Assembly (NCBI RefSeq): GCF_000023965.1
Contig: NC_013202.1
Location: 1,020,001-1,052,000 of the forward strand
DNA: 32,000 bases
Source: Halomicrobium mukohataei DSM 12286
Lineage (GTDB): Archaea; Halobacteriota; Halobacteria; Halobacteriales; Haloarculaceae
Reading direction: 5' to 3'
Under the pieces are notes generated by a model. It was not told the DNA's origin. It made no database searches and saw only the letters and a list, made by a program, of their open reading frames with translations. Shown here in pieces: positions 7,901 to 24,793 of this stretch; positions within the stretch are counted from its first letter, which is position 1; every line of letters starts with the position of its first letter. The translations under genes were made by a program, and so were the position numbers.

Positions 7901-8827
7901 TTACCGGAGCCCGCCGGTGGGGCTTTGCTGGCCGAGCGGTGGCTGTGTGGCGAGATCGGACTGGATCGGGTCGCGTCCGGACTGAAAGGAACTACCCACC
8001 TCGCCGGTCGACGGCTCCAGTTGGTTCGGGAACTGGCCCGACTGAGCGGCCCCGGCGAAGCGGCCGGAGTGCTGTCCGGTGGACTGGTCCGTCGGGAGTT
8101 GCTGAGACGAGAACTGATAGTGGCCCGCCAGGGCGGGCTGCTGGGCGGCCGGCTGTTGAGTGGGTAGCTGCTGAACGGCCGGCTGTCGAGCCGATACCTG
8201 CTGAGCAGACGGCTGCTGTGCAGCTTGCTGAACGGGTTGCTGCTGTGCGACCGGCTGCTTGGCGATTGGCTGCTGAACGGGTGGCTGCTGTACGGCTTGC
8301 TGGGCGGTCGGTTGCTGGGCGGCCGGCTGTTGAGCCGATACCTGCTGAGCAGACGGCTGCTGTGCAGCTTGCTGAACGGTCGGCTGCTGTGCGGCTTGCT
8401 GGGCGGCCGGCTGCTGGGCGGCCGGTTGCTGTGCGGCCGGTTGCTGTGCGGCCGGCTGCTGAGCGACCGGTTGCTGAGCGGCCGGCTGCTGGGCGATCGG
8501 CTGTTGAGACGATGCCTGCTGAGCAGACGGCTGCTGTGCAGCTTGCTGGGCGGCCGGCTGCTGTGCCGGTTCCTGTGTGATCGGGCGCTGCGGTGGCACC
8601 TGTGTGGCTGGCGACTGGCCCGCTATCGGCTGTTGATTCGGGAGTTGCGCGGCCGCCGGCTGCTGACTCGTCTGCTGGGCTGCCTGCGGGACGGCTCCGC
8701 CGGCGGGTTCCATCGTCGAACGCGGTGGGATCTGCTGCTGTGTCGGCTGTGTGGCTGGCTGCTGGCTCGCGCGGTTTGGCTGGCTATACATGTCACTCGC
8801 CATGGGCTGCTGTTGCTGGTGTGTCAT
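7901..8827 (-). CDS. Gln/Pro/Ala-rich pentapeptide-repeat protein (about 308 aa), low complexity, nearly devoid of acidic residues
   Basis: It lies in track ORF 7901..8860. I prefer the ATG at 8827-8825 because GGAGGT (complement of 8834-8839) sits 6 nt upstream. The TAA stop at 7903-7901 is 7 nt before the Hsp20 ATG. There are dozens of QQPxA-type repeats, and no TM helix or signal peptide. Confidence 0.7.
   Translation of the reverse strand: MTHQQQQPMASDMYSQPNRASQQPATQPTQQQIPPRSTMEPAGGAVPQAAQQTSQQPAAAQLPNQQPIAGQSPATQVPPQRPITQEPAQQPAAQQAAQQPSAQQASSQQPIAQQPAAQQPVAQQPAAQQPAAQQPAAQQPAAQQAAQQPTVQQAAQQPSAQQVSAQQPAAQQPTAQQAVQQPPVQQPIAKQPVAQQQPVQQAAQQPSAQQVSARQPAVQQLPTQQPAAQQPALAGHYQFSSQQLPTDQSTGQHSGRFAGAAQSGQFPNQLEPSTGEVGSSFQSGRDPIQSDLATQPPLGQQSPTGGLR
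8133..8570. repeat. Coding tandem repeat array (15-nt unit, CTGCTG-GGC-GGC-CGG type on + strand) with higher-order repeats
   Basis: A 59-nt block at 8177-8235 recurs at 8321-8379 with one mismatch (144-nt spacing). A more diverged copy lies at 8497-8552. The array is entirely inside the Gln-rich CDS. Confidence 0.85.
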
Positions 8828-9129
8828 CGATGTACCTCCGGTGGCGCGCCGGTGTCCCACGTCGGGAGCCGACGGCGCAGTCGGCCGTACTACCGGCCCC
8901 CGTATTAAACGTAGAGACGATTAGAGCGTGTTCAGGCCGTAGCTCCGAAATACCGTCGGATAACCGACTCTATCCGGTCCGTGGAAATCGAGAAGGCTCG
9001 CCAATAGAGTGAGATACGCCGACGTTACCCGAGTACGTCGTTCCTGAGCGGGTCCGCGTGTCGTCGGCGGCTGGGCGTGACGAGTCAGTTCCACGAAGAT
9101 TTTACGTCACCGGGGTAAATTCGGCGCGT

Positions 9130-10908: not shown

Positions 10909-13014
<2,106 letters not shown>

Positions 13015-13127: not shown

Positions 13128-14282
13128 CTACCGCGGGCAGCCGACGTCGTCGGCCGGTTCGTCGGTGCCGTAGTGGTTGGCCTCGTACTCGACGTTCGCC
13201 CAGTCGCCGGTGTTGACCTGCGTGATCGCGCTGCCGTCCCAGTCGGCGGGGGTTGACTTCGGCTCGTCGGCGTTGTAGAACCAGTTGTGGTGCACGTCGG
13301 CCACGTCGTCGGGCGTGCCCCGGATGGCGACGGCTTCGGGCTCGCCGCCGTCCTGGACGTGGGCGACCGCTTCGACGGTGTTGTGGTGGATCTCCATCGT
13401 CGTTCCGCCGGGCTCGTGCTGATCGATGACGTGGTCGACCGTCTCCGGTCCGAAGTGGTTGTACCGGGCGGTGTAGCCGCAGTTGCCGCTGCCGGCGACG
13501 CTGTGGCGGTTGTAGTTGAAGTAGTTGTACTCGATCAGGGGCTGGCCGCGGGTGACGCTGACGCCGTAGCCCAGCCCGTCCATCGGGTTGTGGTGGACGT
13601 CGTTGTGGTGGACGTGGGTGTCGGTGAAGGGTCGGATGGCCGCGTGAGAGAAGCCGAAGACTTCGTTGTTGTCGATCTCGACGCCGCTGTCGGCGACCTG
13701 CAGGCCGATACTGACCGGGCCGTCGGTAAGGTCGACGTACTCGTCGTACTGGCCGCTGACGCGCAGTCCCGTCACGCGGGCGTTCGCGCGGACGACGAAC
13801 ATCGGCCACGGGAGATCGGTCGTCTGGAGGTGGCCGCCGGGTGCGCCGTCGATCCCGCGGTCCGAGGCCAGCGTGACGCCCTCGGGGATCGACCACTCCG
13901 CACCGCCCATGTCGATGGTCGCGTCGCCAGCGACGTACACCACGTCGCCACTGGACGCGCTCCCCAGCGCGTCCTGGAGTTCGCTCCGGGTACCGACGGT
14001 AACGTCTGCCTGATCCGGTCCGACGGTGCGCTCGTATCCGGTGCCGCCGCCGACGACCGGTGCGTCGTTCGCGTCGCCGTCGCCCGCCGGTTCGGACGCG
14101 CGGCCGGTCACGTCGTCGTCGGCCTCGGCGGCCGATTCGGAGTCGCGTGCGCTCGCAGCGCCAACGCCCACGCCGCTCATGAGCATGAGGCCAGTCAGTT
14201 CCAGACAGCGGCGTCGGCTGACGGGCAGGTCGGTCTGTGTCGTCGGTGCAGTACGGTTCCGGTCGCCGTTAGGTTCCGGCAT
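13128..14282 (-). CDS. Tat-secreted right-handed parallel beta-helix repeat protein (pectin-lyase-fold-like), function unknown
   Basis: ATG at 14282-14280. The twin-arginine signal is VSRRRCLELTGLMLMSGVGVGAASA. Recurring beta-helix-type repeats carry HHN motifs (THVHHNDVHHNPMDG, EIHHNTVEAV, DVHHNWFYN). Confidence 0.7.
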   Translation of the reverse strand: MPEPNGDRNRTAPTTQTDLPVSRRRCLELTGLMLMSGVGVGAASARDSESAAEADDDVTGRASEPAGDGDANDAPVVGGGTGYERTVGPDQADVTVGTRSELQDALGSASSGDVVYVAGDATIDMGGAEWSIPEGVTLASDRGIDGAPGGHLQTTDLPWPMFVVRANARVTGLRVSGQYDEYVDLTDGPVSIGLQVADSGVEIDNNEVFGFSHAAIRPFTDTHVHHNDVHHNPMDGLGYGVSVTRGQPLIEYNYFNYNRHSVAGSGNCGYTARYNHFGPETVDHVIDQHEPGGTTMEIHHNTVEAVAHVQDGGEPEAVAIRGTPDDVADVHHNWFYNADEPKSTPADWDGSAITQVNTGDWANVEYEANHYGTDEPADDVGCPR

Positions 14283-14535
14283 AATCGAGTACAGTGATCT
14301 TACCGGTAAAGGGGGTTTTTACGGGGTGGCAACCGGGTTGTCACACCCACAGCCCAGCGACGGTCGGACGCTCGGCAGTTGCTTGCCAGTTCGGTGCGAG
14401 CCGAGCCGGGCGAGAACGGTTCGATTACCCCGTGACAGGTCAGCATTATCGCGAGTAAGGCACGATTACGGCTTCGAGCGGGGGTCTCAGTGGTCCGGCA
14501 CAGAACGGTGCGCGCGAGCGAGTCGGGTGGCAGTG

Positions 14536-15240
14536 CTAGTCGGCCGGGGTCGTCTCGGACGCGGTCGTCGGACGCAGCGACGCGGAGCCGACCGCGTCGA
14601 GGTTCGCCAGCAAGAACCCGGCAAAGCCCACGCGGATGAGGACGGCCATGTACTGGCTGATCGCCAGCGAGACGAAGGCGTCGAAGACGCCGAACAGCGC
14701 GATGACGGCGTAGGCGATCAACATCCCGATGAGGAACAACACCAGGTTCCGGGCCTTCCAGTGGAGGAGCCGGCGCTGCTCGGGCACTCCCCGTGTCTGC
14801 GTCCAGACCGGCCCCAGGAGGTAGGCGGCGATCGCGAGGTGCCCGCCGACGACGACCACCAGACCGATCAGGGCGACGATCCCGCCCGAGACCGCCGCGA
14901 CCTCGAAGGCGATGCGCTGGACGACCGGCGTGAGCACGATGGCCGCGAGCGCGCGACCCTCCACGTCGGCGAGTCGCGCCATCACGGCGTACAACACCCC
15001 GTACGCGATCATCGATTCGACGAACAGCGGGACGACGACTTCGCTACCGTTGACCGTGATCGTCCCGACGCCGGCAGCGACGACCGCCGACGCCACTCCG
15101 GCGAGCGCGACGACCAGCACGATTGGGGTACAGAACCGGCGGTGCTCCGGTGAGACCTGGCGGAGCCACCCCCACAGGACGACGAGCGCGACTGCGTAGA
15201 CCACGGCGGTGAGACCGTAGACGGTCGTCGCCTCAATCAT
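14536..15240 (-). CDS. Sensory-rhodopsin-like 7TM protein lacking the retinal Schiff-base lysine (Lys replaced by Arg)
   Basis: The ATG at 15240-15238 overlaps the htr stop by 8 nt. The track's alternative start is a GTG at 15249. The protein has seven hydrophobic helices. By-eye similarity to SRI/SRII includes [13 protein letters not shown] (SRI: GTVIVNGNQIVGL), GVPEQ, RNL and a VGFAGF helix-G tail. The helix-G position is AVLIRVGF (Arg codon CGC at 14634-14632). Confidence 0.8.
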
Positions 15241-16822
15241 CGTCGTCACCCGCCGTTGCGCTCGCGGTCTGGACTGCTCCGGTGTGGTCCGTGTCTCTGG
15301 TCTCGAACGAATCCAGCAGCGCCATCAGGTCGGCCGTCTGGTCGTTCAGGTCGTCGGCGCGCTCGCGAACGCCACGCATCGTCGACGCCGTCTGCTCGGC
15401 CGTGTCGGCCAGCTCGTTCGAGCGAGTCGCCACCTGCTGGGCGGACTCGGCGACCTGGTCGAGCGCTGCCGAGACCTCCTCGGTGGCGGCCGCACCGTCG
15501 TCGGTCGCGCGGGCGATCTCCGCCATCGCGTCGTCCACGTCGTCGACGGTCTCGGTCAGCGTGCCCAGCGTCTCTCCGGCTTCGGTCACCGTCTCGACCC
15601 CGTCGTCGATCCGGCGGCGCGTCAGCGCCATCTCCTCGGTCACGCCGTCCACGTCGTCGCGGGCACCGTCGACGATCGACTCGATCTCGTCGATGGCGTC
15701 CTGGGTCTGCTCGGCCAGCCCCTTCACTTCGTCGGCGACGACGGCGAACCCGTCGCCACCGCTCCCGGCGTGAGAGGCCTCGATGTTGGCGTTGAGCGCG
15801 AGCATGTCGGTCTGCTGGGCGATCTCGTCGATGAGTCCCGTCGTCTCCGCGACCTCGTCCATCCGGTCGTCGAGAGCGGCGACGAGCCGGTCGAGTTCGT
15901 CGACGGCGTCGGCGACGTGTTCGATCGTCTCGACTGCCTCTTCGGTGCGCTCTGCGCCGGTCGCGCCGACCTCGGCGGCTTCGGTCGCCCGCCCCGCGAC
16001 CTCGTCGGTCGTCGAAGCGACTTCCTCGATCGTCGCCGAGAGGTCGTTCGTCTCGGCGACCGCGCTCTGGAGGCGTTCGGCCTGTCCGGACACGTCACTG
16101 GCGAGTTCGCGGATGTCGGTCGCCAGCGACTCGTTGAGGCGCTCGACCTCGGCGGCGTCCTCGGCGACGGCCCCGCTTGTCTGTTCGACCGTCGTCGCGA
16201 AGGCCCGAATCTCGCCGACAGTATCCGAGAGGTCGACGGTCATCGACTCGTAGGCGTCGGCGATCCGTTCGATCGCGTCGACCTCGCTGTCGGCCGTCAG
16301 GCGGTGGGTGAAGTCGCCGTCGGCGGCGGCCGCCATCGCGTCGCCGATCGTCTCGGCCTGATCGACCAGTCGATCGTTGAATTCCTCGGCCTCGGCGCGG
16401 GCCGCTTCGGCCTCCGACTTCGCCTGTTCGGCCTCTTTGCGAGAGGCCTCCGACTCTTCGAAGGCCGACGTGAGCGAGTCGCGCATGCTGTCGAACGCGT
16501 CGGCGAGCCGGCCGAACTCGTCGGCCCGATCGACCTCGGGAGTGGCGTCGAGGTCGCCGTCCTCGATGGCGGCGGCCGCGTCGGTGAGCTGTCTGAGCTC
16601 GACCGCGACGTTGCCGGCCAACACGATTCCCAGCAGGCCGAGGTTGAGCGTGACGACGAAGACCGTCCCCGCGAGCCCGGCGAGTCCGGCCTCCGGCGAA
16701 GTGGCGACGTGGGCGGCAAAGACCGCACCGAAACCGACCGTCACTCCCAACGTGATCGCCAGCGCCGTGCCGATGCGGCGGCTGTACTGCGAGGCGAGCC
16801 ACGTGACTGTCCGTGATTGCAT
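15233..16822 (-). CDS. Halobacterial transducer (Htr, methyl-accepting chemotaxis protein) of the HtrI/HtrII type with two TM helices and almost no extracellular loop
   Basis: 529 aa with ATG at 16822-16820. TM1 spans about residues 17-39 and TM2 about 46-73, followed by a HAMP region ([17 protein letters not shown]). The conserved MCP signalling hairpin is present ([40 protein letters not shown]). Confidence 0.92.
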
Positions 16823-16943: not shown

Positions 16944-18065
16944 TTACAGGTCTGCGACGTCCTCGATGGCGTCGGTCAGCGTCCGGATCGACTCGACATC
17001 GTGTTCGCCCATGTGGCCGATCCGGAACGTCTCCTCGCCAAGCGCGGAGCCGTAACCGTTCGAGAACACCATGTCGTACTTCTCGGACACCTCCTCGATG
17101 GTCCCGGCCACGTCGATGCCCTGCGTGTTCTCGATACAGGAGACCGTCTGGGACTCGTACCCCTCCTCGGGGAACATGTCGAAGTGATCGCGCGCCCACT
17201 CGCGGGTGTACTCGGCCATCTCGCGGTGGCGCTGGTCGCGCCCGTCGTGGCCCTCTTCGAGCATGTGTTTCATCTGCTTGCGGTAGGCCAGCATGATCGG
17301 GATTGCGGGCGTCGAGTGGGTCTGTCCCTTCCGGTCGTAGTAGTCCAGACAGCGCTGGAAGCCGCCGTACCACGAGGCGGACTCCTTCTCGATCTCGCGA
17401 TCGTAGGCGTCGTCGCTGACGACACAGACGGTCAGTCCCGGCGGCATGGCGAACGCCTTCTGGGTCGAGGCGAAGATCACGTCGACGTTGTGCTGGTCGA
17501 TGTCGACGTAGTCACCGCCGAGCGAGGAGACGGCGTCGACGACGAAGTAGGTGTCCGGGTACTCCGCGACCACGTCGCCGATCTCCTCGATGGGGTTGCG
17601 GACGCCGGTCGAGGACTCGTTCATCACCGTCGCGACCACGTCGTAGTGCTTGTCGCTCGATTCGAGTTCGGCGCGGATGTCCTCGGGCTTGATGGCCTGT
17701 CCCCACTCGTATTCGAGTCGGTCCACGTCCTTGCCGAGGCGCTCGGCGACGTTGGCGTGGCGCTCGCTGAAGCTGCCACAGGTCGGGACGAGGATGTTCT
17801 CGTCGACGAGGTTCAGCGTCGATGCCTCCCAGAACTCCGTCCCGGAGCCCGTGAGGATGATCACGTCGTTGTCGGTACCCAGGAACGTCTTCGTGTCCTC
17901 GACGATGGTCGTGTAGAGGTCGGTCATCCGGTCCATCCGGTGGCCGAACATCGGCTGAGCCATCGCCTGGATCACGTCGTCGCGGACCTCGGTCGGGCCT
18001 GGAATGTACAGCGTCTTGTCGGGATAGTCGTCCGTGTATTCGCTTTTTTTCGTCACTGAAGCCAC
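16944..18065 (-). CDS. Class-V pyridoxal-phosphate-dependent aminotransferase (serine-glyoxylate/alanine-glyoxylate aminotransferase family)
   Basis: 373 aa. The start is a GTG at 18065 or 18056, with no nearby ATG. The PLP-lysine motif is [13 protein letters not shown], and the YIPGPTEV N-terminus is typical of the family. Confidence 0.85.
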
Positions 18066-18439: not shown

Positions 18440-19519
18440 ATGCCAGACAGCACACGCGGTACAGCACTCGTATTGGTCCTCTCGGTCGCGCTCGTGGCGA
18501 GCGCGGCCTTCGTCGGGGTCGGCTTCGGCCAGCAGGCCGAGGACGACGCCGACAACACGGAGTTGAGCACACAGAACACGTCGTACCTGCGCGTCGCCCA
18601 CGCCGCGCCCGGCGCGACGTCGGTCGACGTGTACGTCGACAACGAGACGGTCGCCGAGGGCGTCGCGTTCGACACGTTCAGCGACTACATCGCCCTCGAA
18701 TCGGGCAACCACACGATAACGCTCACCGTCGTCGACAGGCCCGACGAGGTCGTGTTCAACGAGACCGTCGACCTCGAACCGCGGTCGGTGACGACCGTGA
18801 CCGCGGCCATCGCCGCGAACGACAGCGAGGGCGGGGTCGTCCCCGTGGCCTACGACGACAGCGCCGCCACGCCGGCAGACGACGAGGCTGCACTCCGGAT
18901 CGCTCACCTCTCGCCGAACGCGCCGGCAGTCGACATCGTCGCCGTCGAGAGCGGCGAGGACAACGCCACCGAGGAGACGGCGACAGAGACGGAGGCAAAC
19001 GAGACCGACGAGACCGAAGAGACCGACGAGACCGCGACCGGTGAGACGGTCCTCGCCGAGAACGTCTCGTACACCGATGCGACCGAGTACGCGAACGTCC
19101 CGGCCGGCGACTACACCGTCGAGGTCAGAGTCGCGGCCGAGGACAACGACGGATCGGTCGTCGCCAGCACGGACCTCTCCCTGGAGAGCGGCGTCGCCCA
19201 CACCGCCTGGGCGCTCGGGAACGTCCCCGAGGACGGCGAGGAGATGCCACCGACCTTCCGCGTCGCCACGACCCAGGACGCCAGCAGGACCATCGACTTC
19301 CCGGGCGCGGAAAACGAGACTGAACAGACGGACACCGAAACGGAAGCCGAAGACGGCGAGACGACCGACGAGGAAACGACCGACGAGGAAGAGACAACTG
19401 AGGAAGAGACGACCGACGAGGAAGAGACGACCGACGAGGAAACGGCCGACGAGGAAGAGACAACTGAGGAGGAAGAGACGACCGACGAGGAAGCGACGGA
19501 GACCGAAGCCGCGACGTAG
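18440..19519 (+). CDS. Secreted DUF4397-domain protein with a Thr/Glu/Asp-rich repetitive C-terminal tail
   Basis: ATG at 18440 with a Sec-type signal/anchor (ALVLVLSVALVASAAFVGVG). Two DUF4397-like modules are present (YLRVAHAAPGATSVDVYVDNETV... and LRIAHLSPNAPAVDIVAVE...), along with many N-x-S/T sequons. The tail reads EETTDEEETTEEETTDEEETTDEETADEEETTEEEETTDEE. Confidence 0.8.
   Translation: MPDSTRGTALVLVLSVALVASAAFVGVGFGQQAEDDADNTELSTQNTSYLRVAHAAPGATSVDVYVDNETVAEGVAFDTFSDYIALESGNHTITLTVVDRPDEVVFNETVDLEPRSVTTVTAAIAANDSEGGVVPVAYDDSAATPADDEAALRIAHLSPNAPAVDIVAVESGEDNATEETATETEANETDETEETDETATGETVLAENVSYTDATEYANVPAGDYTVEVRVAAEDNDGSVVASTDLSLESGVAHTAWALGNVPEDGEEMPPTFRVATTQDASRTIDFPGAENETEQTDTETEAEDGETTDEETTDEEETTEEETTDEEETTDEETADEEETTEEEETTDEEATETEAAT
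19320..19510. repeat. Coding tandem repeats (GAn/ACG-rich) encoding the acidic T/E/D tail
   Basis: The 25-nt block ccgacgaggaagagacaactgagga occurs at 19380-19404 and 19446-19470 (66-nt spacing), embedded in shorter gacgaccgacgaggaa-type repeats. Confidence 0.7.
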
Positions 19520-19639: not shown

Positions 19640-20623
19640 ATGCCGTCGCTGGCCGACCACTCGTGTATGGATCACGAGACCGCCGGCCGGGCCTGCGCCG
19701 AGATTCTCGACGCCGTCGGGAGCGCGGTGATCGCCGAGGACGCCTTCCTGGAGGCCGTGCTGACCGGCGTCCTCGCACGGGGCCACGTCCTGCTGGAGGA
19801 CGTACCCGGCACCGGCAAGACGCTGACCGCCCGGAGCTTCGCGAACGCGCTCGATCTCTCGTTCAACCGCATCCAGTTCACGCCGGACCTGTTGCCGGCC
19901 GACATCACCGGGTCGAACGTCTACAACGAGGGGACGGGGAGCTTCGAGTTCGCGCCGGGGCCGATCTTCGCCAACGTCGTGCTGGCCGACGAGATCAACC
20001 GCGCCCCGCCCAAGACACAGGCCGCGCTGCTGGAGGCGATGGGCGAGGGCCAGGTCACCGTCGACGGCGAGACCCACGCGCTGCCCGAGCCGTTTTTCGT
20101 CATCGCGACGCAGAACCCGGTCGAGCAGGAGGGGACCTTCGGGCTGCCCGAGGCCCAGCGGGACCGCTTCGTCGTCAAGACCGCGATGGGCTACCCCGAC
20201 TTCGACGGCGAGCGAGCGCTGATCGACCGGCGGGCCGACCGCACCGCACAGGCACCGAGCGTCACGGCGATCGTCGACGCCGAGCGGATCCCCGACCTCC
20301 AGCGCGTCGCCGAGACCGTCACCGTCGACGGGAAGCTCAGGGACTACGTCGTCGAACTCGGGCGGGCGACCCGCGCCGACGAGCGCGTCGACGTCGGCGT
20401 CTCGCCGCGCGGGATCCAGCGGCTGTTCGAAGCCGCTCGCGCTCGCGCCGTCATCGAGGGGCGGGACTACGTCGTCCCCGAGGACGTACAGCGGGTCGTC
20501 CGCGACGTGTTCGCTCACCGACTGGTGCTGACCGCCGACGCGAGCGTCCGCGAGGTCGACCCCGACGAGGTAGTCCGGGACGTGCTCGATCGGATCGAGG
20601 TGCCGGCCGTCTCGCCGACCTGA
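19640..20623 (+). CDS. MoxR-family AAA+ ATPase
   Basis: 327 aa, with an alternative ATG at 19667. Walker A is DVPGTGKT and Walker B is VVLADEINRAPPKTQAALLEAM. Sensor/arginine-finger motifs are PFFVIATQNP and EAQRDRF. Confidence 0.9.
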   Translation: MPSLADHSCMDHETAGRACAEILDAVGSAVIAEDAFLEAVLTGVLARGHVLLEDVPGTGKTLTARSFANALDLSFNRIQFTPDLLPADITGSNVYNEGTGSFEFAPGPIFANVVLADEINRAPPKTQAALLEAMGEGQVTVDGETHALPEPFFVIATQNPVEQEGTFGLPEAQRDRFVVKTAMGYPDFDGERALIDRRADRTAQAPSVTAIVDAERIPDLQRVAETVTVDGKLRDYVVELGRATRADERVDVGVSPRGIQRLFEAARARAVIEGRDYVVPEDVQRVVRDVFAHRLVLTADASVREVDPDEVVRDVLDRIEVPAVSPT

Positions 20624-20723
20624 GCGCCGGACCGATCGGATCGTCAGACTGCCGGCTGTGACTCTGTGACCGATGTCGCCACCCGAGGTGACGACGGTCG
20701 CCGCGACGTGACGGCCGGCAGCA

Positions 20724-21182
20724 TCACTCGTCGGCGAGACTCGGCGCGAACGATTGGTCTCTTGCGACCACCGTCTCGGGCGAGAACCGGACGAACGACC
20801 ACCGCTCCGGATCGAGGTCGACGAATCGCGGGTCCCACTGGTCGGGATCGTCGCCGAGGTAGTTCCCCAGCAGCCGTCGCACGCGGTCGGCGTCGAGCGC
20901 GACCAGTTCGGCGCGGCCGCGCATGCCGACGTGGTGGACCCGGCCGCTCGTCGGCTCGGCGTCGACGACGGCGACGGCGCTCTCGGGGCGGGCCTCGATG
21001 CGCCCGGTGTAAGACTTGCCGACGGTGTCACCGAGAATCCAGACGTACTCGTCCTCCCACAGGAACCACAGCGGGGAGACGCGAGGCTCGCCGGTCGGAG
21101 CAGTCGTCCCGAGAAAGCAAAACAGCGGGCGTGCGAGCACCTCGTCGATCGAGCTTTCGAGCGTGTTTTCGACGATCTCCAT
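20724..21182 (-). CDS. Pyridoxamine 5'-phosphate oxidase family (FMN-binding split-barrel) protein
   Basis: I used the internal ATG at 21182-21180 of track ORF 20724..21317 (MEIVENTLESSIDEVLARPLFCFLGTTAPTGEPRVSPLWFLWEDEYVWILG...). The upstream extension is Ser/Pro/Trp/Cys-rich and overlaps the end of the previous gene. Confidence 0.7.
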   Translation of the reverse strand: MEIVENTLESSIDEVLARPLFCFLGTTAPTGEPRVSPLWFLWEDEYVWILGDTVGKSYTGRIEARPESAVAVVDAEPTSGRVHHVGMRGRAELVALDADRVRRLLGNYLGDDPDQWDPRFVDLDPERWSFVRFSPETVVARDQSFAPSLADE

Positions 21183-21228
21183 GCCGGCGAGTCGGACCGC
21201 CCCCAGGTAAGGATTGTACTCGCACCGA

Positions 21229-22836
21229 TCACCGCAGCGCGACCAGCAACGCCAACAGCCCCGCGACGGCGACGACCAGGCCGGCGACGACGGCCCCGTC
21301 GGCGACGGTGACCGCACCGACGGCGGCGTCGGTCACGGCCACGGCGACGGCGACGCCGACCCCGCCGATGGCCAGCGTTCCGGTCGTGTGGACCAGTTCT
21401 GCCCGACGGGTGTCGGCCCGCCGTCCGATCTCCTCGCCCAGCGTCGTCCCGAACTCGCCCACGTCCCAGACGAGGACGGCCGCGACGAGACTGGCAAACA
21501 GCAGCGCCGTCGGAACGCCGACGACGCCAGCGAACGCCGCGACCACGAAGAGTGCGCCACTGGCGATTCCGACGCCGGCAGTGCGGTCGTCGAGGTACTT
21601 CGTGAGCAAGACGAGCCACAGACACATCGCCACGACCGCGGCGACCAGCAACACGAAGCCGACGCCGGTCAGGACGATCGGGACCGGGCCGTAGAAGTCG
21701 ACGACGGAGCCAGACAGCTCGCGAAACTGCGGGCCGAACTCGCCGGGCAGCGTCGCAGCGACCCAGCCGCGAGCCGCCGACAGGACCGGGCCGGCGACGA
21801 GGGCGGCCGCGACCAGCACCCCGCTCCCGGCCGCGAAGGGCGCGACCGCGGCCCCGATCCGGTCGGCAGCGGTCTGGGCGGTCCGCCGGAGCACGGCGAC
21901 GGCGACGAGCGTCGCGACACAGAGGACGATCACACGCCACGCGAGCCTGCGAGCCGGCGGCGCGGTCGTCACCGCCGTCAACAGGTCGAAGGCGGGCGGC
22001 GTCACCACCGACTGGAGCCGCTCGGGCGGGAACACGTAGTCGGTGAAGAACCCCACGGGAACCCCGAACCCGGCGACGACGGCCGCCCGGAGCAGCCACG
22101 ACCGGACGCTCGCGACGGCGCGCTCGACCGCCGGATCGGTCGTGAGTTCGGTGAGCGGCAGGGCACCGACGGTCCGTCGGACGACCAGAAGCGCGGCCGC
22201 GACGAGCAACAGGAACGTCGTCACGCTGGGTCGGACCGCTGGGGGCTCGAAGACGACCGTCGTGGCCGTCCGGAGCACGTCGCCGAGGACGGCCCCGACC
22301 CCCGGTGCGTCGCGGGTGGATTCGAGATACCGGAGGGCCTCGCTGGCGACGAGGACCAGCCCCACTCCGAGTGGCGGTATCGTCGTCTTCAGCGACGCCT
22401 CGGCGGTCCGCCTGGCCGTGTCTCGATCGAGGACGTGTCCGATCGCCACGCTCGCGCCGAAGACGGCCGCGGCCGCGCCGACGACGACCATCGCGCGGGC
22501 CGACAGGTCGACGACGGTCGCCGGCAAGCGGGACAGCGACTCGACGGGGAAGAAGACGCCCGCCAGGACGATGACGGTCCCGACCGTCGCAGCGACGACG
22601 CCGACCCCGATCGGGAGCGCGAGCAGGCTGGTCAGGACGGTCCCCAGCGTGCGGTGGCGGTCCCAGCCGGCGGTCCAGACCGCCAGTGCGAGCGCGACCG
22701 CGCCCGCCCCGCCGAGCGCGGCCGGCACCGCGACGCCGATCGCTCGCACGAGCACCGTCGCTGTCAGCAGCGTGACGAACACGACCAGCCCCGTGCTCGC
22801 CGTCGTCGGCCGCCACTCAGTGCGATCGTCGATCAT
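21229..22836 (-). CDS. Polytopic integral membrane protein (535 aa, at least 12 TM), last gene of the transglutaminase/DUF58 operon
   Basis: The ATG at 22836-22834 overlaps the DUF58 stop (ATGA). The protein is almost entirely hydrophobic and Ala/Val/Gly/Leu-rich. No family recognised. Confidence 0.7.
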   Translation of the reverse strand: MIDDRTEWRPTTASTGLVVFVTLLTATVLVRAIGVAVPAALGGAGAVALALAVWTAGWDRHRTLGTVLTSLLALPIGVGVVAATVGTVIVLAGVFFPVESLSRLPATVVDLSARAMVVVGAAAAVFGASVAIGHVLDRDTARRTAEASLKTTIPPLGVGLVLVASEALRYLESTRDAPGVGAVLGDVLRTATTVVFEPPAVRPSVTTFLLLVAAALLVVRRTVGALPLTELTTDPAVERAVASVRSWLLRAAVVAGFGVPVGFFTDYVFPPERLQSVVTPPAFDLLTAVTTAPPARRLAWRVIVLCVATLVAVAVLRRTAQTAADRIGAAVAPFAAGSGVLVAAALVAGPVLSAARGWVAATLPGEFGPQFRELSGSVVDFYGPVPIVLTGVGFVLLVAAVVAMCLWLVLLTKYLDDRTAGVGIASGALFVVAAFAGVVGVPTALLFASLVAAVLVWDVGEFGTTLGEEIGRRADTRRAELVHTTGTLAIGGVGVAVAVAVTDAAVGAVTVADGAVVAGLVVAVAGLLALLVALR

Positions 22837-24170
22837 CGGTTGAACAGCTCCGCGAGCGAGGCCCGCATGGCGATGTCGATCGGTTCGTCGAGGTCCCAGT
22901 CGATCAGCGTCGCCCCGGTCAGCTCCACCGACTGGAGGCGCAGCCGGCGTTCGAGCGCGACGACGGTCTGGGCCGGTCCCTCGCCGCGAGTCACGTCGGG
23001 ACTGACGACGGTCGTCGGGTAGCTCCGCGCCCGGAGGCTCGTGATCAGTTCGGTCGGCCAGTCGTCGAGCAGCGGCGAGAAGACGACGACCTGAGCCGTC
23101 GGCGGGAGGCGAGCGAGCAGCGACTGGATGTCGGGGACGGTCCGATCCGTCGGGGTCTCTGCCCCCTCCCGCTCGCCGCCGTCGGGGGCGACGCTGTCGC
23201 GTGCGGCCGCCGACTGGACGCCGTCGAACAGACGACTCGCCTGCGGGCTCTCGACGCCGCCGTCGGGGTCAGCCCAGGCCAGTCCGTCGGGGCCGAGCCC
23301 GCCCACGAGATCCTCGTCTGCGAGCCCGACGGCGGTGACGCTGGCGACGACACTCGATCTGGACAGGGCATCGAGCAGACGCTCGGCGGCGTAGGCGGAC
23401 AGCTCGGCACCCGTCGGATACCCCGCTTCCGGCGTCACCCGCGTCGGGGGGCGTGCGTCGACGACCAGCACCGTGCGGACGGCCTGTTCCTCGCGGTACT
23501 CGACGGTCGTCAGTTCGCCGGTCTTGGCCAAGCGCCGCCAGTCGATTCGCGAGACCGGATCGCCCGACTGGTAGTCGCGGGTCGCGTGAAACTCCAGCCC
23601 GCTGCCGCCGCTGTCGGTCGGGAGCGTGCCGGCGCGGGGCAGCGTCGCGTCGGCCAGCGGTGCCTCGGCGACCACGTTGGCACAGGTCAGGGCGGTGTCG
23701 CCCGTCGCGGCGACCGTCGCCGTGGCGATCTCGGTGGCCGCCAGCGGCCGGATTCGAACGACGGGGTCCTCGAAGGCGTAGGTCCCCCGCTTCGAGCGGA
23801 CGGCGTACTCGACGGTCGTCGACTCGCCCGGCCGCAGCGAGCGACAGGCCCGCGGCGAGCCCGAGACGACGGTCAGCTCGGCGGGGACGCCGTCGACGAT
23901 CCGAACGTCGGTCAGGGTCCGCCGGCCGGTGTTCTCGACGGTCAGCGTCACGTCGACCGGATCGCCCGGCGTCGGTGCGGCGGCGGCCACGGTCCGGTCG
24001 GCGTCGAGGTTGGCTCCCGACGGGACTCGCGACAGCGACCCGACCAGCACGGAGGCGAGGGGGATCGCCGCCCCCGCGAAGAGGGCCGGTTCGGCGGCCA
24101 GGAGACCGACGCTCAGTAGCGTCACCGTCCCCGCGAGCGGGACGCCCCAGCGCCGGACGCGGTCGGTCAC
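22833..24170 (-). CDS. DUF58-domain protein (MoxR-associated)
   Basis: It lies in track ORF 22833..24269. I prefer the GTG at 24170-24168, which overlaps the upstream TGA (GTGA). There are N-terminal TM helices, and the DUF58 signature is GSGLEFHATRDYQSGDPVSRIDWRRLAKTGEL. Confidence 0.85.
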   Translation of the reverse strand: MTDRVRRWGVPLAGTVTLLSVGLLAAEPALFAGAAIPLASVLVGSLSRVPSGANLDADRTVAAAAPTPGDPVDVTLTVENTGRRTLTDVRIVDGVPAELTVVSGSPRACRSLRPGESTTVEYAVRSKRGTYAFEDPVVRIRPLAATEIATATVAATGDTALTCANVVAEAPLADATLPRAGTLPTDSGGSGLEFHATRDYQSGDPVSRIDWRRLAKTGELTTVEYREEQAVRTVLVVDARPPTRVTPEAGYPTGAELSAYAAERLLDALSRSSVVASVTAVGLADEDLVGGLGPDGLAWADPDGGVESPQASRLFDGVQSAAARDSVAPDGGEREGAETPTDRTVPDIQSLLARLPPTAQVVVFSPLLDDWPTELITSLRARSYPTTVVSPDVTRGEGPAQTVVALERRLRLQSVELTGATLIDWDLDEPIDIAMRASLAELFNR

Positions 24171-24793
24171 GGCCACCCCTCCGTGAGCCCGCGCGTGGCA
24201 CGGACCGTGCGGTGCAGTCGGCGTCGGCGCTCGGCCGCCGGATCGAGCCAGAGCCTGAGACGCGACCACAGCGAGTGCGACGGCCCCTCGTCGTCCGAGA
24301 GGAGGGCCGCGGCGGTCCGGTCGTCGGTCCAGTCACCGCGCTCGACCGCTCGCCGGGCGTCCTCGGGGCCACAGCCGGCCGTCTGTGCGTAGGCCGCCGT
24401 GGCCGTCTCCCGAAACCGCTCCCGGACGGCGTCGAGCGCCTCGTCGTCGCCCGCGATGGCGTCGTCGATCGTCGCCGCCAGCGCCGCGCCGGTCCGACGC
24501 TGGCGTGCCGTCGTGACCGCCTCTGGCGGTTCCGCGGTCGCGGCGTCGAACGCGTCTCCGCCCTCCCCAGCGCGGCTCGGTAGCGTCGCCGACCGGGCGG
24601 CGACGAGCAGGTAGAGTCCGGCGAGGAGGCTGCCGGCCAGCAACAGCTGGCGCGCGTTCGCCGCCTCGCCGAGGGTCACGAGCGGATCGACGGGCGCAAC
24701 CGACAGCAGCGTCTCGGGAGCGAACAGCAGCCCGGCGGCCAACGCCGTTGCGACCGTCCCCACGACGCCGAACAGGACGACCCGGACCCGCAT
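24167..24793 (-). CDS. Hypothetical two-TM protein with a cytoplasmic helical tail (208 aa), operon member
   Basis: I used the internal ATG at 24793-24791 of track ORF 24167..25066. This ATG shares one nucleotide with the transglutaminase TGA. The sequence begins MRVRVVLFGVVGTVATALAAGLLF. The upstream extension is poly-Arg nonsense. Confidence 0.65.
   Translation of the reverse strand: MRVRVVLFGVVGTVATALAAGLLFAPETLLSVAPVDPLVTLGEAANARQLLLAGSLLAGLYLLVAARSATLPSRAGEGGDAFDAATAEPPEAVTTARQRRTGAALAATIDDAIAGDDEALDAVRERFRETATAAYAQTAGCGPEDARRAVERGDWTDDRTAAALLSDDEGPSHSLWSRLRLWLDPAAERRRRLHRTVRATRGLTEGWP

What the first reader, a model, noticed from the sequence alone, without database searches (positions are those of the whole stretch)
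14536..16822. Transducer-coupled sensory-rhodopsin homologue that has lost the retinal-binding lysine and most of the retinal pocket
**What the sequence shows.**
- The htr gene (two TM helices, HAMP, MCP signalling domain) is followed by a 7TM gene whose ATG overlaps the htr stop by 8 nt (GATGATTGA). This is the arrangement known for htrI-sopI and htrII-sopII.
- The 7TM protein is clearly SR-like in several stretches: [21 protein letters not shown] and VGFAGF.

**What has changed.**
- At the helix-G position where SRI has DVLAKV and SRII has DLVTKV, this protein reads AVLIRV. Arg (CGC, 14634-14632) replaces the Schiff-base Lys, and the Asp four residues upstream is Ala.
- The helix-C motif R-Y-x-D-W reads L-F-V-E-S.
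- The helix-F motif W-x-x-Y-P-x-x-W reads I-G-M-L-I-A-Y-A.
- The only Lys in the whole protein is in the E-F loop.

**Interpretation.**
- With this many coordinated changes in an intact, translationally coupled ORF, the protein looks like a functional non-retinal 7TM partner for a taxis transducer rather than a sequencing error or pseudogene.
- Lysine-less type-1 opsin homologues have been reported in haloarchaea, but to my knowledge their ligand and function are unresolved. What this pair senses is unknown.
Basis: partly seen in the sequence, partly recalled or inferred. Interest (0 to 1): 0.8.

Follow-up and report, generated by a model that had tools for sequence, protein, structure and literature searches.

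The report
Retinal-free sensory-rhodopsin homologue with its transducer
This Halomicrobium gene pair encodes a chemotaxis-type transducer and a sensory-rhodopsin look-alike that cannot bind retinal; it is real and conserved, but it belongs to the "opsin-related protein" class published in 2016, whose stimulus is still unknown.

Summary
- htr (15233-16822, minus strand) encodes two TM helices, HAMP and an MCP signalling domain. Its stop overlaps the ATG of a 234-aa 7TM gene (14536-15240) by 8 nt.
- The 7TM protein aligns end to end with N. pharaonis SRII. Its AlphaFold model superposes on SRII at TM-score 0.82-0.87.
- Arg203 sits on the Schiff-base Lys, LFVES on RYIDW and IGMLIAYA on WAIYPFIW. 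None of 18 retinal-pocket positions is identical. The only Lys is in the E-F loop.

The gene is not a pseudogene.
- 66 of 67 full-length close homologues keep the Arg.
- 22 of 23 genome loci have the htr directly upstream, mostly with the same overlap.
- dN/dS is 0.23-0.57.

The class is already published. Becker et al. 2016 (PMC4915679) described haloarchaeal group-A "opsin-related proteins": Lys replaced by Arg, transducer-adjacent, with one ORP listed for Halomicrobium mukohataei. Two other ORPs showed no retinal absorbance.

Two points appear to be new.
- The Arg covaries with a helix-C carboxylate, which suggests an ion pair in place of Schiff base and counterion.
- The ORP gene alone has been exchanged between near-identical Halomicrobium genomes: ORP 62-68% identical against Htr 96-99%.

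The stimulus remains unknown.

The parts
15233..16822 (-). htr: 529-aa HtrII-type taxis transducer. TM1 is about residues 17-40, the external loop is about 10 residues, and TM2 is about residues 47-74, followed by HAMP and the MCP signalling domain.
   Evidence: Pfam HAMP 1.3e-15 and MCPsignal 2e-36. The N-terminal 120 aa hit NpHtrII chains of SRII-HtrII crystal structures at E 1e-10. Found directly upstream of the ORP in 22 of 23 genome loci at 46-97% identity.
16469..16621 (-). First HAMP domain of the Htr (residues 68-118).
   Evidence: Pfam PF00672. Aligns with NpHtrII HAMP1.
15446..15946 (-). MCP signalling domain of the Htr (residues 293-459).
   Evidence: Pfam PF00015, 125.9 bits against a cutoff of 34.6.
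16643..16645 (-). Htr Asn60 in TM2 (LNLGL). It is the equivalent of NpHtrII Asn74, which hydrogen-bonds SRII Tyr199.
   Evidence: HMMER alignment to 4gyc_B and 5jjj_B. The position is Asn or His in all correctly extracted Htr orthologues.
15233..15240 (-). 8-nt overlap ATGATTGA between the htr stop and the ORP start, indicating translational coupling.
   Evidence: Sequence. The same overlap (ATGATTGA, ATGATTAG or ATGTTTGA) is present in most of the loci.
14536..15240 (-). ORP: 234-aa SRII-like 7TM protein without the Schiff-base Lys or the retinal pocket. It belongs to the group-A opsin-related proteins.
   Evidence: phmmer to NpSRII at E 1e-6 over the full length. AlphaFold2 pLDDT 90.4 with seven helices and a B-C hairpin. 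Foldseek top hits are all NpSRII, TM-score 0.82-0.87. 69 homologues found.
15013..15027 (-). Helix-C motif L72-F73-V74-E75-S76 in place of R-Y-I-D-W.
   Evidence: An acidic residue at position 75 or 76 is kept in 65 of 67 close homologues.
14707..14730 (-). Helix-F motif I171-G-M-L174-I175-A-Y-A178 in place of W-x-x-Y-P-x-x-W.
   Evidence: L174, I175 and A178 are nearly invariant in the family.
14632..14634 (-). Arg203 (CGC) at the Schiff-base Lys position (NpSRII K205).
   Evidence: Arg in 66 of 67 full-length close homologues, the exception being Gln, and in 29 of 37 tips of the R-type clade.
14650..14652 (-). Tyr197, equivalent to NpSRII Tyr199, the helix-G residue that contacts the transducer.
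   Evidence: Invariant in 67 of 67 close homologues.
14755..14757 (-). Lys162, the only Lys. It lies in the invariant cytoplasmic E-F-loop / helix-F motif LHWKARNL.

Best explanation
**What it is**
The two genes are a translationally coupled htr-orp operon. It encodes a membrane receptor-transducer complex built like N. pharaonis SRII-HtrII. The receptor subunit is a retinal-free opsin-related protein of Becker's group A.

**Shown by sequence**
- The ORP has the SRII fold.
- It lacks the Schiff-base Lys and every retinal-pocket residue.
- It is conserved and under purifying selection.
- Its most conserved parts are helices F and G, which bind the transducer in SRII.
- The SRII Tyr199 / HtrII Asn74 contact pair is retained on both partners.
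- The Htr has no periplasmic domain of its own. It does have intact HAMP and MCP signalling domains.

**Inferred**
- The ORP docks through helices F and G on Htr TM1/TM2 and is the input module of this transducer.
- Arg203 forms a buried ion pair with the helix-C carboxylate (Glu75 here, Asp76 in most relatives). This pair replaces the protonated Schiff base-Asp75 lock of SRII.
- A non-light stimulus perturbs this core. It could be a small ligand, pH, an ion or membrane potential; which one is unknown.
- The perturbation moves helix F, which is relayed through TM2 and HAMP to CheW/CheA and the archaellum motor.
For: **Homology and fold**
- Full-length phmmer alignment to SRII.
- AlphaFold2 model with pLDDT 90.4.
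- Foldseek top 14 hits are all NpSRII, TM-score 0.82-0.87.

**Loss of the retinal site**
- Arg sits on K205, and 0 of 18 pocket positions are identical.
- Gly112 becomes Phe and Gly130/Ala131 become Val, while Trp76, Trp171 and Trp178 become small residues.

**Constraint**
- Arg in 66 of 67 close homologues; Tyr80, Gln108, Phe112 and Tyr197 in 67 of 67.
- dN/dS 0.23-0.57 and intact ORFs in 23 loci.

**Coupling to the Htr**
- htr lies directly upstream in 22 of 23 loci (the exception is cut by a contig end), and the 8-nt overlap is conserved.
- Mean column conservation is 0.83 for helix F and 0.70 for helix G, against 0.54-0.61 for helices A-E.
- Htr TM2 Asn60 aligns with NpHtrII Asn74 and is Asn or His in orthologues.
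- The Htr external loop is about 10 residues.

**Ion pair**
- 27 of 29 clade representatives with Arg205 have Asp or Glu at position 75 or 76. Among the seven clade members with a different residue at 205, two do.
- Group-B-like relatives instead keep Arg72 (43 of 45) and Asp/Glu201 (45 of 45).

**Literature (PMC4915679)**
- Same class and same hypothesis.
- Transcripts were detected for eight of nine ORPs tested.
- Two ORPs showed no retinal absorbance.
Against: - There is no experimental evidence for any stimulus, for complex formation, or for retinal non-binding of this particular protein.
- The ORP evolves faster than its Htr in every locus. Helices A-E are only weakly conserved. This fits a passive partner about as well as a specific sensor.
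- This window's protein has Ser at position 76, so the argument relies on Glu75.
- Helix-D equivalences are uncertain by one residue.
Confidence: 0.6

Rival explanations
1. The ORP is a non-sensing pseudo-receptor. It is an obligatory structural partner that keeps the Htr folded, or sets its baseline signalling. It is effectively a permanently dark SRII locked by the Arg-carboxylate pair. Any regulation enters through the Htr cytoplasmic part or through adaptation.
For: - Conservation is concentrated on the Htr-binding helices F and G, while helices A-E drift.
- The ORP evolves faster than the Htr in all loci.
- Very divergent ORP alleles (62-68% identical) sit next to 96-99% identical Htrs, so they appear interchangeable.
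Against: - Residues inside the former pocket (Tyr80, Gln108, Phe112, Arg203 and the acid at 75/76) are invariant or nearly so. A docking surface alone does not require this.
- The Htr has no other recognisable input domain.
Confidence: 0.2
2. The ORP has a function independent of the Htr, and the adjacency is a legacy of its SR ancestry. Candidates are an ion or solute pathway, a lipid scramblase, or a stress-protective membrane protein like the fungal opsin-related HSP30/YRO2 proteins.
For: - 15 of 32 group-B ORPs are not next to transducers (PMC4915679).
- A light-independent scramblase activity has been reported for a proteorhodopsin (PMC10730872; abstract listed).
Against: - In this R-type clade the htr is upstream in 22 of 23 loci, with a conserved overlapping stop/start, across at least 10 genera.
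- The Tyr199/Asn74 contact pair is kept on both partners.
Confidence: 0.08
3. The ORP is still a photoreceptor. It would use a non-covalently bound retinal, a retinal analogue or another chromophore such as a carotenoid.
For: - BR and bovine rhodopsin Lys mutants work with aminated retinylidene compounds, as cited in PMC4915679.
- Halomicrobium isolates carry bop, so retinal is probably available (PMC7755889).
- Becker et al. state that an alternative chromophore remains untested.
Against: - 0 of 18 pocket residues are retained. The Gly residues that make room for retinal are replaced by Phe and Val.
- Two ORPs showed no band at 480-580 nm with excess retinal.
Confidence: 0.07
4. The ORP is a decaying relic of a sensory rhodopsin on its way to becoming a pseudogene.
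For: - dN/dS is relatively high (0.23-0.57) compared with neighbours at 0.06-0.37.
- No Pfam or NCBIfam model hits the protein.
Against: - ORFs are intact in all 23 loci from at least 10 genera, and Arg and 17 other positions are invariant.
- dN/dS is below 1 everywhere.
- Translational coupling is conserved.
- Transcription was shown for related ORPs.
Confidence: 0.03

Closest known systems
Haloarchaeal opsin-related proteins, group A (Becker et al. 2016, PLoS One 11:e0156543, PMC4915679)
   Same: - Type-1 opsin fold closest to the sensory rhodopsins.
- Schiff-base Lys replaced by Arg.
- Tyr174 replaced by Leu and Trp178 by Ala.
- Tyr199 and Asp189 kept.
- Adjacent HAMP/MCP transducer, with a class-V aminotransferase as neighbour.
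- The paper's set lists one ORP each for Halomicrobium mukohataei DSM 12286 and Haloarcula amylolytica JCM 13557. The latter strain's Arg-type locus is L006 here.
   Different: - This allele has Ser at position 76, where the paper reports Asp for group A, and it has Glu75.
- It is only about 37-40% identical to P0076 and P0080. These carry Met at position 108, as the paper reports for its mainly Halorubrum group A. I infer their affiliation from that residue alone.
- It is 62% identical to the ORP of another H. mukohataei genome (L024).
- The paper does not report the Arg-carboxylate covariation or the exchange of ORP alleles.
Natronomonas pharaonis SRII-HtrII complex (PDB 1H2S and others)
   Same: - Best sequence and structure match for both partners.
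- Same gene order with overlapping stop and start.
- The transducer has a short external loop.
- The Tyr199-Asn74 pair is retained.
- The RNL motif and the helix-G VGFxxF motif are retained.
   Different: - No Lys205, Asp201, Arg72 or Trp76, no Trp171/Tyr174/Pro175/Trp178, and hence no retinal.
- 21-25% identity.
- HtrII Gly83 is Ala here (LAGN instead of LGGD).
SRI-HtrI (Haloarcula taiwanensis cryo-EM structure, PMC13269893; PDB 9wxr)
   Same: - The B-C hairpin (GT.TVNG..VV.P) and the E-F-loop VPEQ resemble SRI.
- In SRI the E-F-loop Pro154 packs on HAMP1 AS1.
   Different: - SRI has Phe199 and no Tyr-Asn latch. The ORP keeps the SRII-type Tyr and Asn.
- Weaker sequence match than to SRII-HtrII (E 1e-4 for both partners).
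- The SRI Arg215 equivalent is not kept.
Haloarchaeal ORP group B (Becker et al. 2016)
   Same: - Lysine-less SR-like 7TM proteins of haloarchaea, about half of them next to transducers.
- Tyr199 conserved.
   Different: - Position 205 is Leu, Val, His or another residue.
- Arg72 and Asp/Glu201 are retained, position 76 is Tyr, and position 75 is Gly.
- The window protein is 24-27% identical to such proteins and falls outside them in the NJ tree.
Other lysine-less or retinal-free microbial rhodopsins: Rh-noK of betaproteobacteria, FArhodopsins, fungal ORPs
   Same: Rhodopsin fold kept without a retinal-based function. The function is unresolved.
   Different: - Unrelated clades (xanthorhodopsin- or proteorhodopsin-related, or fungal).
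- They are linked to a proteorhodopsin paralogue or to flotillin, not to a taxis transducer.
- Becker et al. found that non-haloarchaeal ORPs do not branch with the haloarchaeal ones.

Membership tests
Haloarchaeal opsin-related proteins, group A (Becker 2016) | Type-1 opsin homologue closest to the sensory rhodopsins. | tested here: met
   phmmer to NpSRII at E 1e-6 over the full length. Foldseek top hits are all SRII, TM-score 0.82-0.87.
Haloarchaeal opsin-related proteins, group A (Becker 2016) | Schiff-base Lys replaced by Arg. | tested here: met
   R203 aligns with K205 in HMMER and MAFFT alignments. The codon CGC is at 14634-14632.
Haloarchaeal opsin-related proteins, group A (Becker 2016) | Retinal-pocket aromatics lost: Trp76, Tyr174 to Leu, Trp178 to Ala. 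| tested here: met
   Ser76 (Asp in most relatives), Leu174 and Ala178. 0 of 18 pocket positions are identical to NpSRII.
Haloarchaeal opsin-related proteins, group A (Becker 2016) | Adjacent HAMP/MCP transducer gene. | tested here: met
   htr at 15233-16822 with an 8-nt overlap. Same arrangement in 22 of 23 related loci.
Haloarchaeal opsin-related proteins, group A (Becker 2016) | Signalling and interface residues Tyr199 and Asp189 conserved. | tested here: met
   Tyr at position 199 in all homologues. Asp at 189 here and in most relatives.
Haloarchaeal opsin-related proteins, group A (Becker 2016) | Clusters with ORPs of the paper's strains rather than with canonical SRs or group B. | tested here: met
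   NJ tree: an R-type clade of 37 tips has bootstrap support 24/30 and is separate from Lys-bearing SRs and group-B-like proteins. The Arg-type locus of Haloarcula amylolytica JCM 13557 (L006), a strain listed in the paper's S1 Table, is a syntenic relative at 50% identity. The paper's own assignment of that ORP to group A or B was not checked.
Haloarchaeal opsin-related proteins, group A (Becker 2016) | Does not bind retinal (no band at 480-580 nm). | not testable with these tools
   Shown in the paper only for the Hrr. distributum and Nab. magadii ORPs.
Canonical sensory rhodopsins (SRI / SRII) | Lys in helix G forming the retinal Schiff base. | tested here: not met
   Arg at this position. 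The only Lys is K162 in the E-F loop.
Canonical sensory rhodopsins (SRI / SRII) | Counterion complex Arg72 / Asp75 / Asp201 and the aromatic retinal pocket. | tested here: not met
   Leu72, Glu75 and Ala201; Trp76, Trp171, Tyr174, Pro175 and Trp178 are all replaced.
Canonical sensory rhodopsins (SRI / SRII) | Cognate Htr encoded immediately upstream. | tested here: met
Canonical sensory rhodopsins (SRI / SRII) | Matches the Pfam Bac_rhodopsin model. | tested here: not met
   No Pfam family at E up to 1 and no NCBIfam family at E up to 0.01.
HtrII-type phototaxis transducers | Two TM helices, a short external loop, HAMP and an MCP signalling domain. | tested here: met
   Pfam hits. Alignment to NpHtrII residues 29-129 at E 1e-10. 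The loop is about 10 residues.
HtrII-type phototaxis transducers | TM2 Asn74 that hydrogen-bonds receptor Tyr199. | tested here: met
   Asn60 in LNLGL aligns with Asn74 in INLGL. The position is Asn or His in orthologues.
HtrII-type phototaxis transducers | Physical complex with the receptor and signalling to CheA. | not testable with these tools
   Requires biochemistry or a multimer model with coordinates.

The most novel reading that the evidence does not exclude
The rhodopsin fold serves here as a chromophore-free, exchangeable input module for a taxis transducer. A buried Arg-carboxylate ion pair replaces the protonated Schiff base-counterion switch and responds to a chemical or physical stimulus such as pH, an ion, membrane potential or a small ligand. 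Deeply divergent receptor alleles are swapped by recombination next to an almost invariant transducer, so populations carry different input specificities on the same signalling chassis.
Probability: 0.25. Interest if true: 0.75.

Novelty: already known. Interest (0 to 1): 0.35.

Why it matters
- If ORP-Htr pairs sense something other than light, microbial rhodopsins would not be a purely light-sensing family. The SR-Htr module would then be a general 7TM receptor platform, loosely analogous to GPCRs, as Becker et al. argued in 2016.
- That idea is published and still untested. This locus therefore adds a well-defined, conserved member rather than a new concept.
- Two observations made here give concrete handles for experiments.
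  - The Arg203/Glu75 (Asp76) pair is a candidate switch to mutate.
  - Natural, highly divergent ORP alleles on near-identical Htr backgrounds are ready-made specificity variants for comparative taxis assays.

Tried and rejected
- **Profile libraries.** Pfam and NCBIfam scans of the 7TM protein returned nothing. Membership rests on phmmer, MAFFT and Foldseek.
- **Promoter and terminator scan.** The sigma-70 promoter and intrinsic-terminator scan found nothing. It is not informative for an archaeon.
- **RNA genes.** No tRNA or Rfam hit anywhere in the window.
- **ORF extraction.** My first crude extraction picked spurious wrong-frame ORFs for the Htr in L004, L009 and L018, and wrong ORP starts in L002 and L003. 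Those rows were ignored. tblastn coordinates were used instead.
- **Pocket geometry.** Model coordinates are not exposed. Pocket volume and the Arg-carboxylate distance could not be measured, so the ion pair remains an inference.
- **Helix D.** HMMER and MAFFT differ by one residue: Gln108 aligns with Met109 in one and Val108 in the other. I do not rely on exact helix-D equivalences.
- **Pseudogene.** Considered and rejected on conservation, dN/dS and intact ORFs.
- **Accelerated evolution as the cause of the ORP island.** Considered and rejected. dS inside the ORP (0.65) is three to four times that of the flanks (0.14-0.25). In addition, the L024 allele is 89% identical to that of a lineage whose flanks are only 75-84% identical. 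Both point to allele exchange.
- **Host opsin and retinal genes.** I could not determine the opsin and retinal-gene complement of the host genome; the window holds none. The literature only says that several Halomicrobium isolates are positive for bop.
- **Later functional work.** Literature searches for functional work on haloarchaeal ORPs after 2016 found none in the held library.
Full report
**1.

On the minus strand, a 529-aa ORF (15233-16822) is followed by a 7TM ORF.
- The junction reads ...GGT GAC GAC GAT GAT TGA. An ATG lies at 15240-15238, so ATGATTGA is shared by the htr stop and the start of the 7TM gene.
- NCBI calls a GTG 9 nt upstream, giving 237 aa (P0001, 100% identical, Halomicrobium sp. 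ZPS1 / H. mukohataei). Homologues begin with M-I, so the ATG is the better start.
- The upstream protein hits Pfam HAMP (1.3e-15) and MCPsignal (2e-36).
- The 7TM protein hits no Pfam or NCBIfam model.
- phmmer nevertheless aligns it from residue 1 to 217 with N. pharaonis SRII (E 1e-6).
  - Arg203 on Lys205 and Ala199 on Asp201;
  - L-F-V-E-S on R-Y-I-D-W;
  - I-G-M-L-I-A-Y-A on W-A-I-Y-P-F-I-W.
- MAFFT alignments with 69 and then 118 relatives give the same equivalences for helices C, F and G. Helix D differs by one residue between the two methods.
- The only Lys is K162, in the E-F-loop motif LHWKARNL.

**2. Fold**

- An AlphaFold2 model built on 43 homologues has mean pLDDT 90.4 and pTM 0.85. 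It shows seven helices and the B-C beta-hairpin typical of archaeal rhodopsins.
- The best 14 Foldseek matches in the PDB are all NpSRII, free or in complex with HtrII (TM-score 0.82-0.87, 21% identity). Bacteriorhodopsins and other pumps follow.
- None of the 18 residues that line the retinal in NpSRII is identical.
  - Gly112, Gly130 and Ala131, which make room for the chromophore, are Phe, Val and Val.
  - Trp76, Trp171 and Trp178 are Ser, Ile and Ala.

**3. A conserved family, not decay**

- The word-indexed search returned 69 relatives, all with haloarchaeal names where named: Halomicrobium, Haloarcula, Halosimplex, Halorussus, Halobaculum, Halobacterium.
- A profile search of 1.84 billion cluster representatives found 119 proteins at E up to 0.001.
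- Among the 67 full-length close relatives:
  - 66 have Arg at the Lys position, and one has Gln;
  - Tyr80, Gln108, Phe112 and Tyr197 (NpSRII Tyr199) are invariant;
  - LHWKARNL and RVGFAGF are nearly invariant.
- Ranked by profile score, the representatives fall into three sets:
  - an Arg-type set;
  - a set with Val, Leu, His or another residue at 205 that keeps Arg72, Tyr76 and Asp/Glu201;
  - canonical Lys-bearing SRs.
- In an NJ tree the Arg-type set forms a clade of 37 tips with bootstrap support 24/30.

**4. The transducer is always there**

A scan of one genome per species gave 23 loci in at least 10 genera.
- In 22 of them a relative of this Htr ends where the ORP begins. The exception is cut by a contig end.
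- The ATGATTGA, ATGATTAG or ATGTTTGA overlap is conserved in most loci.
- The N-terminal 120 residues of the Htr match NpHtrII from the SRII-HtrII crystal structures (E 1e-10). They match the H. taiwanensis SRI-HtrI fusion more weakly (E 1e-4).
- Asn60 in TM2 (LNLGL) aligns with HtrII Asn74, the partner of SRII Tyr199. It is Asn or His in all orthologues.
- The external loop between TM1 and TM2 is about 10 residues, so this Htr has no periplasmic sensing domain.
- Within the ORP family, helix F (mean column conservation 0.83) and helix G (0.70) stand out against 0.54-0.61 for helices A-E. These are the helices that bind the transducer in SRII.
- The window holds no other opsin, retinal-synthesis, che or archaellum genes. 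Its other genes are:
  - uvrC;
  - an amino-acid permease;
  - Usp;
  - an ABC-2 exporter;
  - ligA;
  - a Tat-signal protein;
  - a class-V aminotransferase;
  - a DUF4397 protein;
  - a MoxR/DUF58/transglutaminase cluster;
  - a Cys/Met PLP enzyme.

**5. Selection and an unexpected island**

Nei-Gojobori dN/dS values, by pair:

| Gene | dN/dS |
|---|---|
| ORP | 0.23-0.57 |
| Htr | 0.08-0.37 |
| Aminotransferase | 0.06-0.19 |
| LigA | 0.10-0.34 |

The ORP is constrained but evolves faster than its partner in every locus. The following comparisons show that the ORP gene alone has been exchanged.
- A fully syntenic H. mukohataei genome (L024) compares with the window as follows:

| Protein | aa identity, window vs L024 |
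|---|---|
| Aminotransferase | 98% |
| Htr | 96% |
| Downstream 384-aa protein | 93% |
| LigA | 92% |
| ORP | 62% |

- Nucleotide identity is 0.89-1.00 through htr. It falls to 0.60-0.79 from about 15280 to about 14400, which covers the ORP and its 3' spacer, and then returns to about 0.9.
- Synonymous divergence in the ORP is 0.65, against 0.14-0.25 in the flanks.
- A metagenomic scaffold (L025) is 98-99% identical to L024 in Htr, the downstream gene and LigA, but only 67.5% in the ORP.
- The L024 allele is 89% identical to that of L026, whose flanks are only 75-84% identical to L024.
- So at least two old allele classes occupy one locus beside a nearly constant htr.
- Two Haloarcula genomes show the same pattern: Htr 93%, ORP 60%.

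**6. A candidate switch**

- In the Arg-type clade, 27 of 29 representatives with Arg205 carry Asp or Glu at helix-C position 75 or 76. Among close relatives the figure is 65 of 67.
- Among the seven clade members with a different residue at 205, only two carry such an acid.
- The second lysine-less set almost never has an acid at 75/76 (4 of 45). It keeps Arg72 (43 of 45) and Asp/Glu201 (45 of 45).
- In canonical rhodopsins the Schiff base faces Asp75. From this I infer an Arg203-Glu75 (Asp76) ion pair that takes the place of the Schiff base-counterion pair.

**7. What is already known**

Becker et al. 2016 (PMC4915679) surveyed 80 haloarchaeal genomes.
- They found 48 lysine-less "opsin-related proteins" among 170 opsins.
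- In their group A the Lys is replaced by Arg, Tyr174 by Leu and Trp178 by Ala, while Tyr199 and Asp189 are kept.
- 15 of 16 group-A genes lie next to a HAMP/MCP transducer. A serine-pyruvate/aspartate aminotransferase appears in the context figure, as it does here.
- Their S1 Table lists one ORP each for H. mukohataei DSM 12286 and Haloarcula amylolytica JCM 13557. The latter strain's locus is L006 here.
- Two heterologously expressed ORPs showed no absorbance at 480-580 nm with retinal.
- They proposed non-light taxis receptors.

Searches of the held library found no later functional study. Other retinal-free rhodopsins, Rh-noK and FArhodopsins, are unrelated clades with other partners.

**8. 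Verdict**

- The finding is a member of a published class with a published hypothesis, so novelty is low.
- I commit to this mechanism:
  - the pair forms an SRII-HtrII-like complex;
  - the retinal-free ORP is the input module;
  - the buried Arg-carboxylate core is the switch;
  - the stimulus is unknown.
- My rough confidence by step is:
  - identity as a group-A ORP: about 0.9;
  - complex with the Htr: about 0.75;
  - genuine non-light sensing: about 0.45.
- The main rival is a non-sensing structural partner.
- The allele exchange and the Arg-acid covariation are modest additions that make the question more tractable.

Noticed in passing
window 14400-15280 compared with L024, L025, L026; also L003 vs L006: The ORP gene alone is a sharply bounded divergent island between near-identical Halomicrobium genomes. 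ORP is 62-68% identical at the aa level, against 96-99% for Htr and 92-99% for LigA. ORP dS is 0.65 against 0.14-0.25 in the flanks. One allele matches a lineage whose flanks are much more distant. This indicates exchange of receptor alleles beside a constant transducer.
   Followed up: yes
family alignment; window codons 15013-15018 and 14632-14634: Arg at the Schiff-base position covaries with a carboxylate at helix-C position 75 or 76. The other lysine-less group instead keeps Arg72 and Asp/Glu201. This suggests two different charge arrangements in the former retinal site.
   Followed up: partly
P0142: A database protein with a fully canonical SRII-type pocket (RYxDW, YPxxW, Asp201) but Arg instead of the Schiff-base Lys. 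This is a separate and apparently recent Lys-to-Arg case outside the ORP clade.
   Followed up: no
P0091: A member of the Arg-type ORP clade has Lys at position 205, and also Lys at 201, but no retinal pocket. It may be an Arg-to-Lys reversion.
   Followed up: no
P0121: A 661-aa database protein whose last 100 residues or so are ORP helices F-G. They are fused to an unrelated multi-TM N-terminal part. It is probably a misassembly or gene-call artefact.
   Followed up: no
window 16944-18065 (-) and 10909-13011 (-): The order class-V aminotransferase - htr - ORP - ligA is conserved across Halomicrobium, Haloarcula and Halosimplex. Becker et al. also draw an aminotransferase in their representative group-A contexts. 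Whether this is functional linkage or old synteny is unclear.
   Followed up: partly
window 7901-8860 (-), tandem repeats 8132-8665: An ORF encodes a Gln/Pro/Ala-rich protein with about 30 copies of an AQQPx pentapeptide (15-nt period). This is an unusual composition for a haloarchaeal proteome, which is normally acidic. Its only Pfam hits are low-complexity matches.
   Followed up: partly
window 18440-19519 (+), repeats 19358-19498: A secreted DUF4397 protein with a C-terminal acidic E-T-T-D-E-E repeat tail.
   Followed up: partly
window 19640-27453: A cluster of a MoxR-type AAA ATPase, a DUF58/DUF11 protein and a transglutaminase-like TgpA-type membrane protein lies next to the locus. The same neighbours appear in L024.
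   Followed up: no
window 13128-14282 (-): A 384-aa protein with a Tat-like signal (SRRRCLELTG) and a faint beta-helix signal lies directly downstream of the ORP. It is found only in the Halomicrobium loci and has no Pfam or NCBIfam hit.
   Followed up: partly
window 15240-15249: The public annotation (P0001, 237 aa) starts the ORP at a GTG 9 nt upstream of the conserved, htr-overlapping ATG. Homologues support the ATG.
   Followed up: yes
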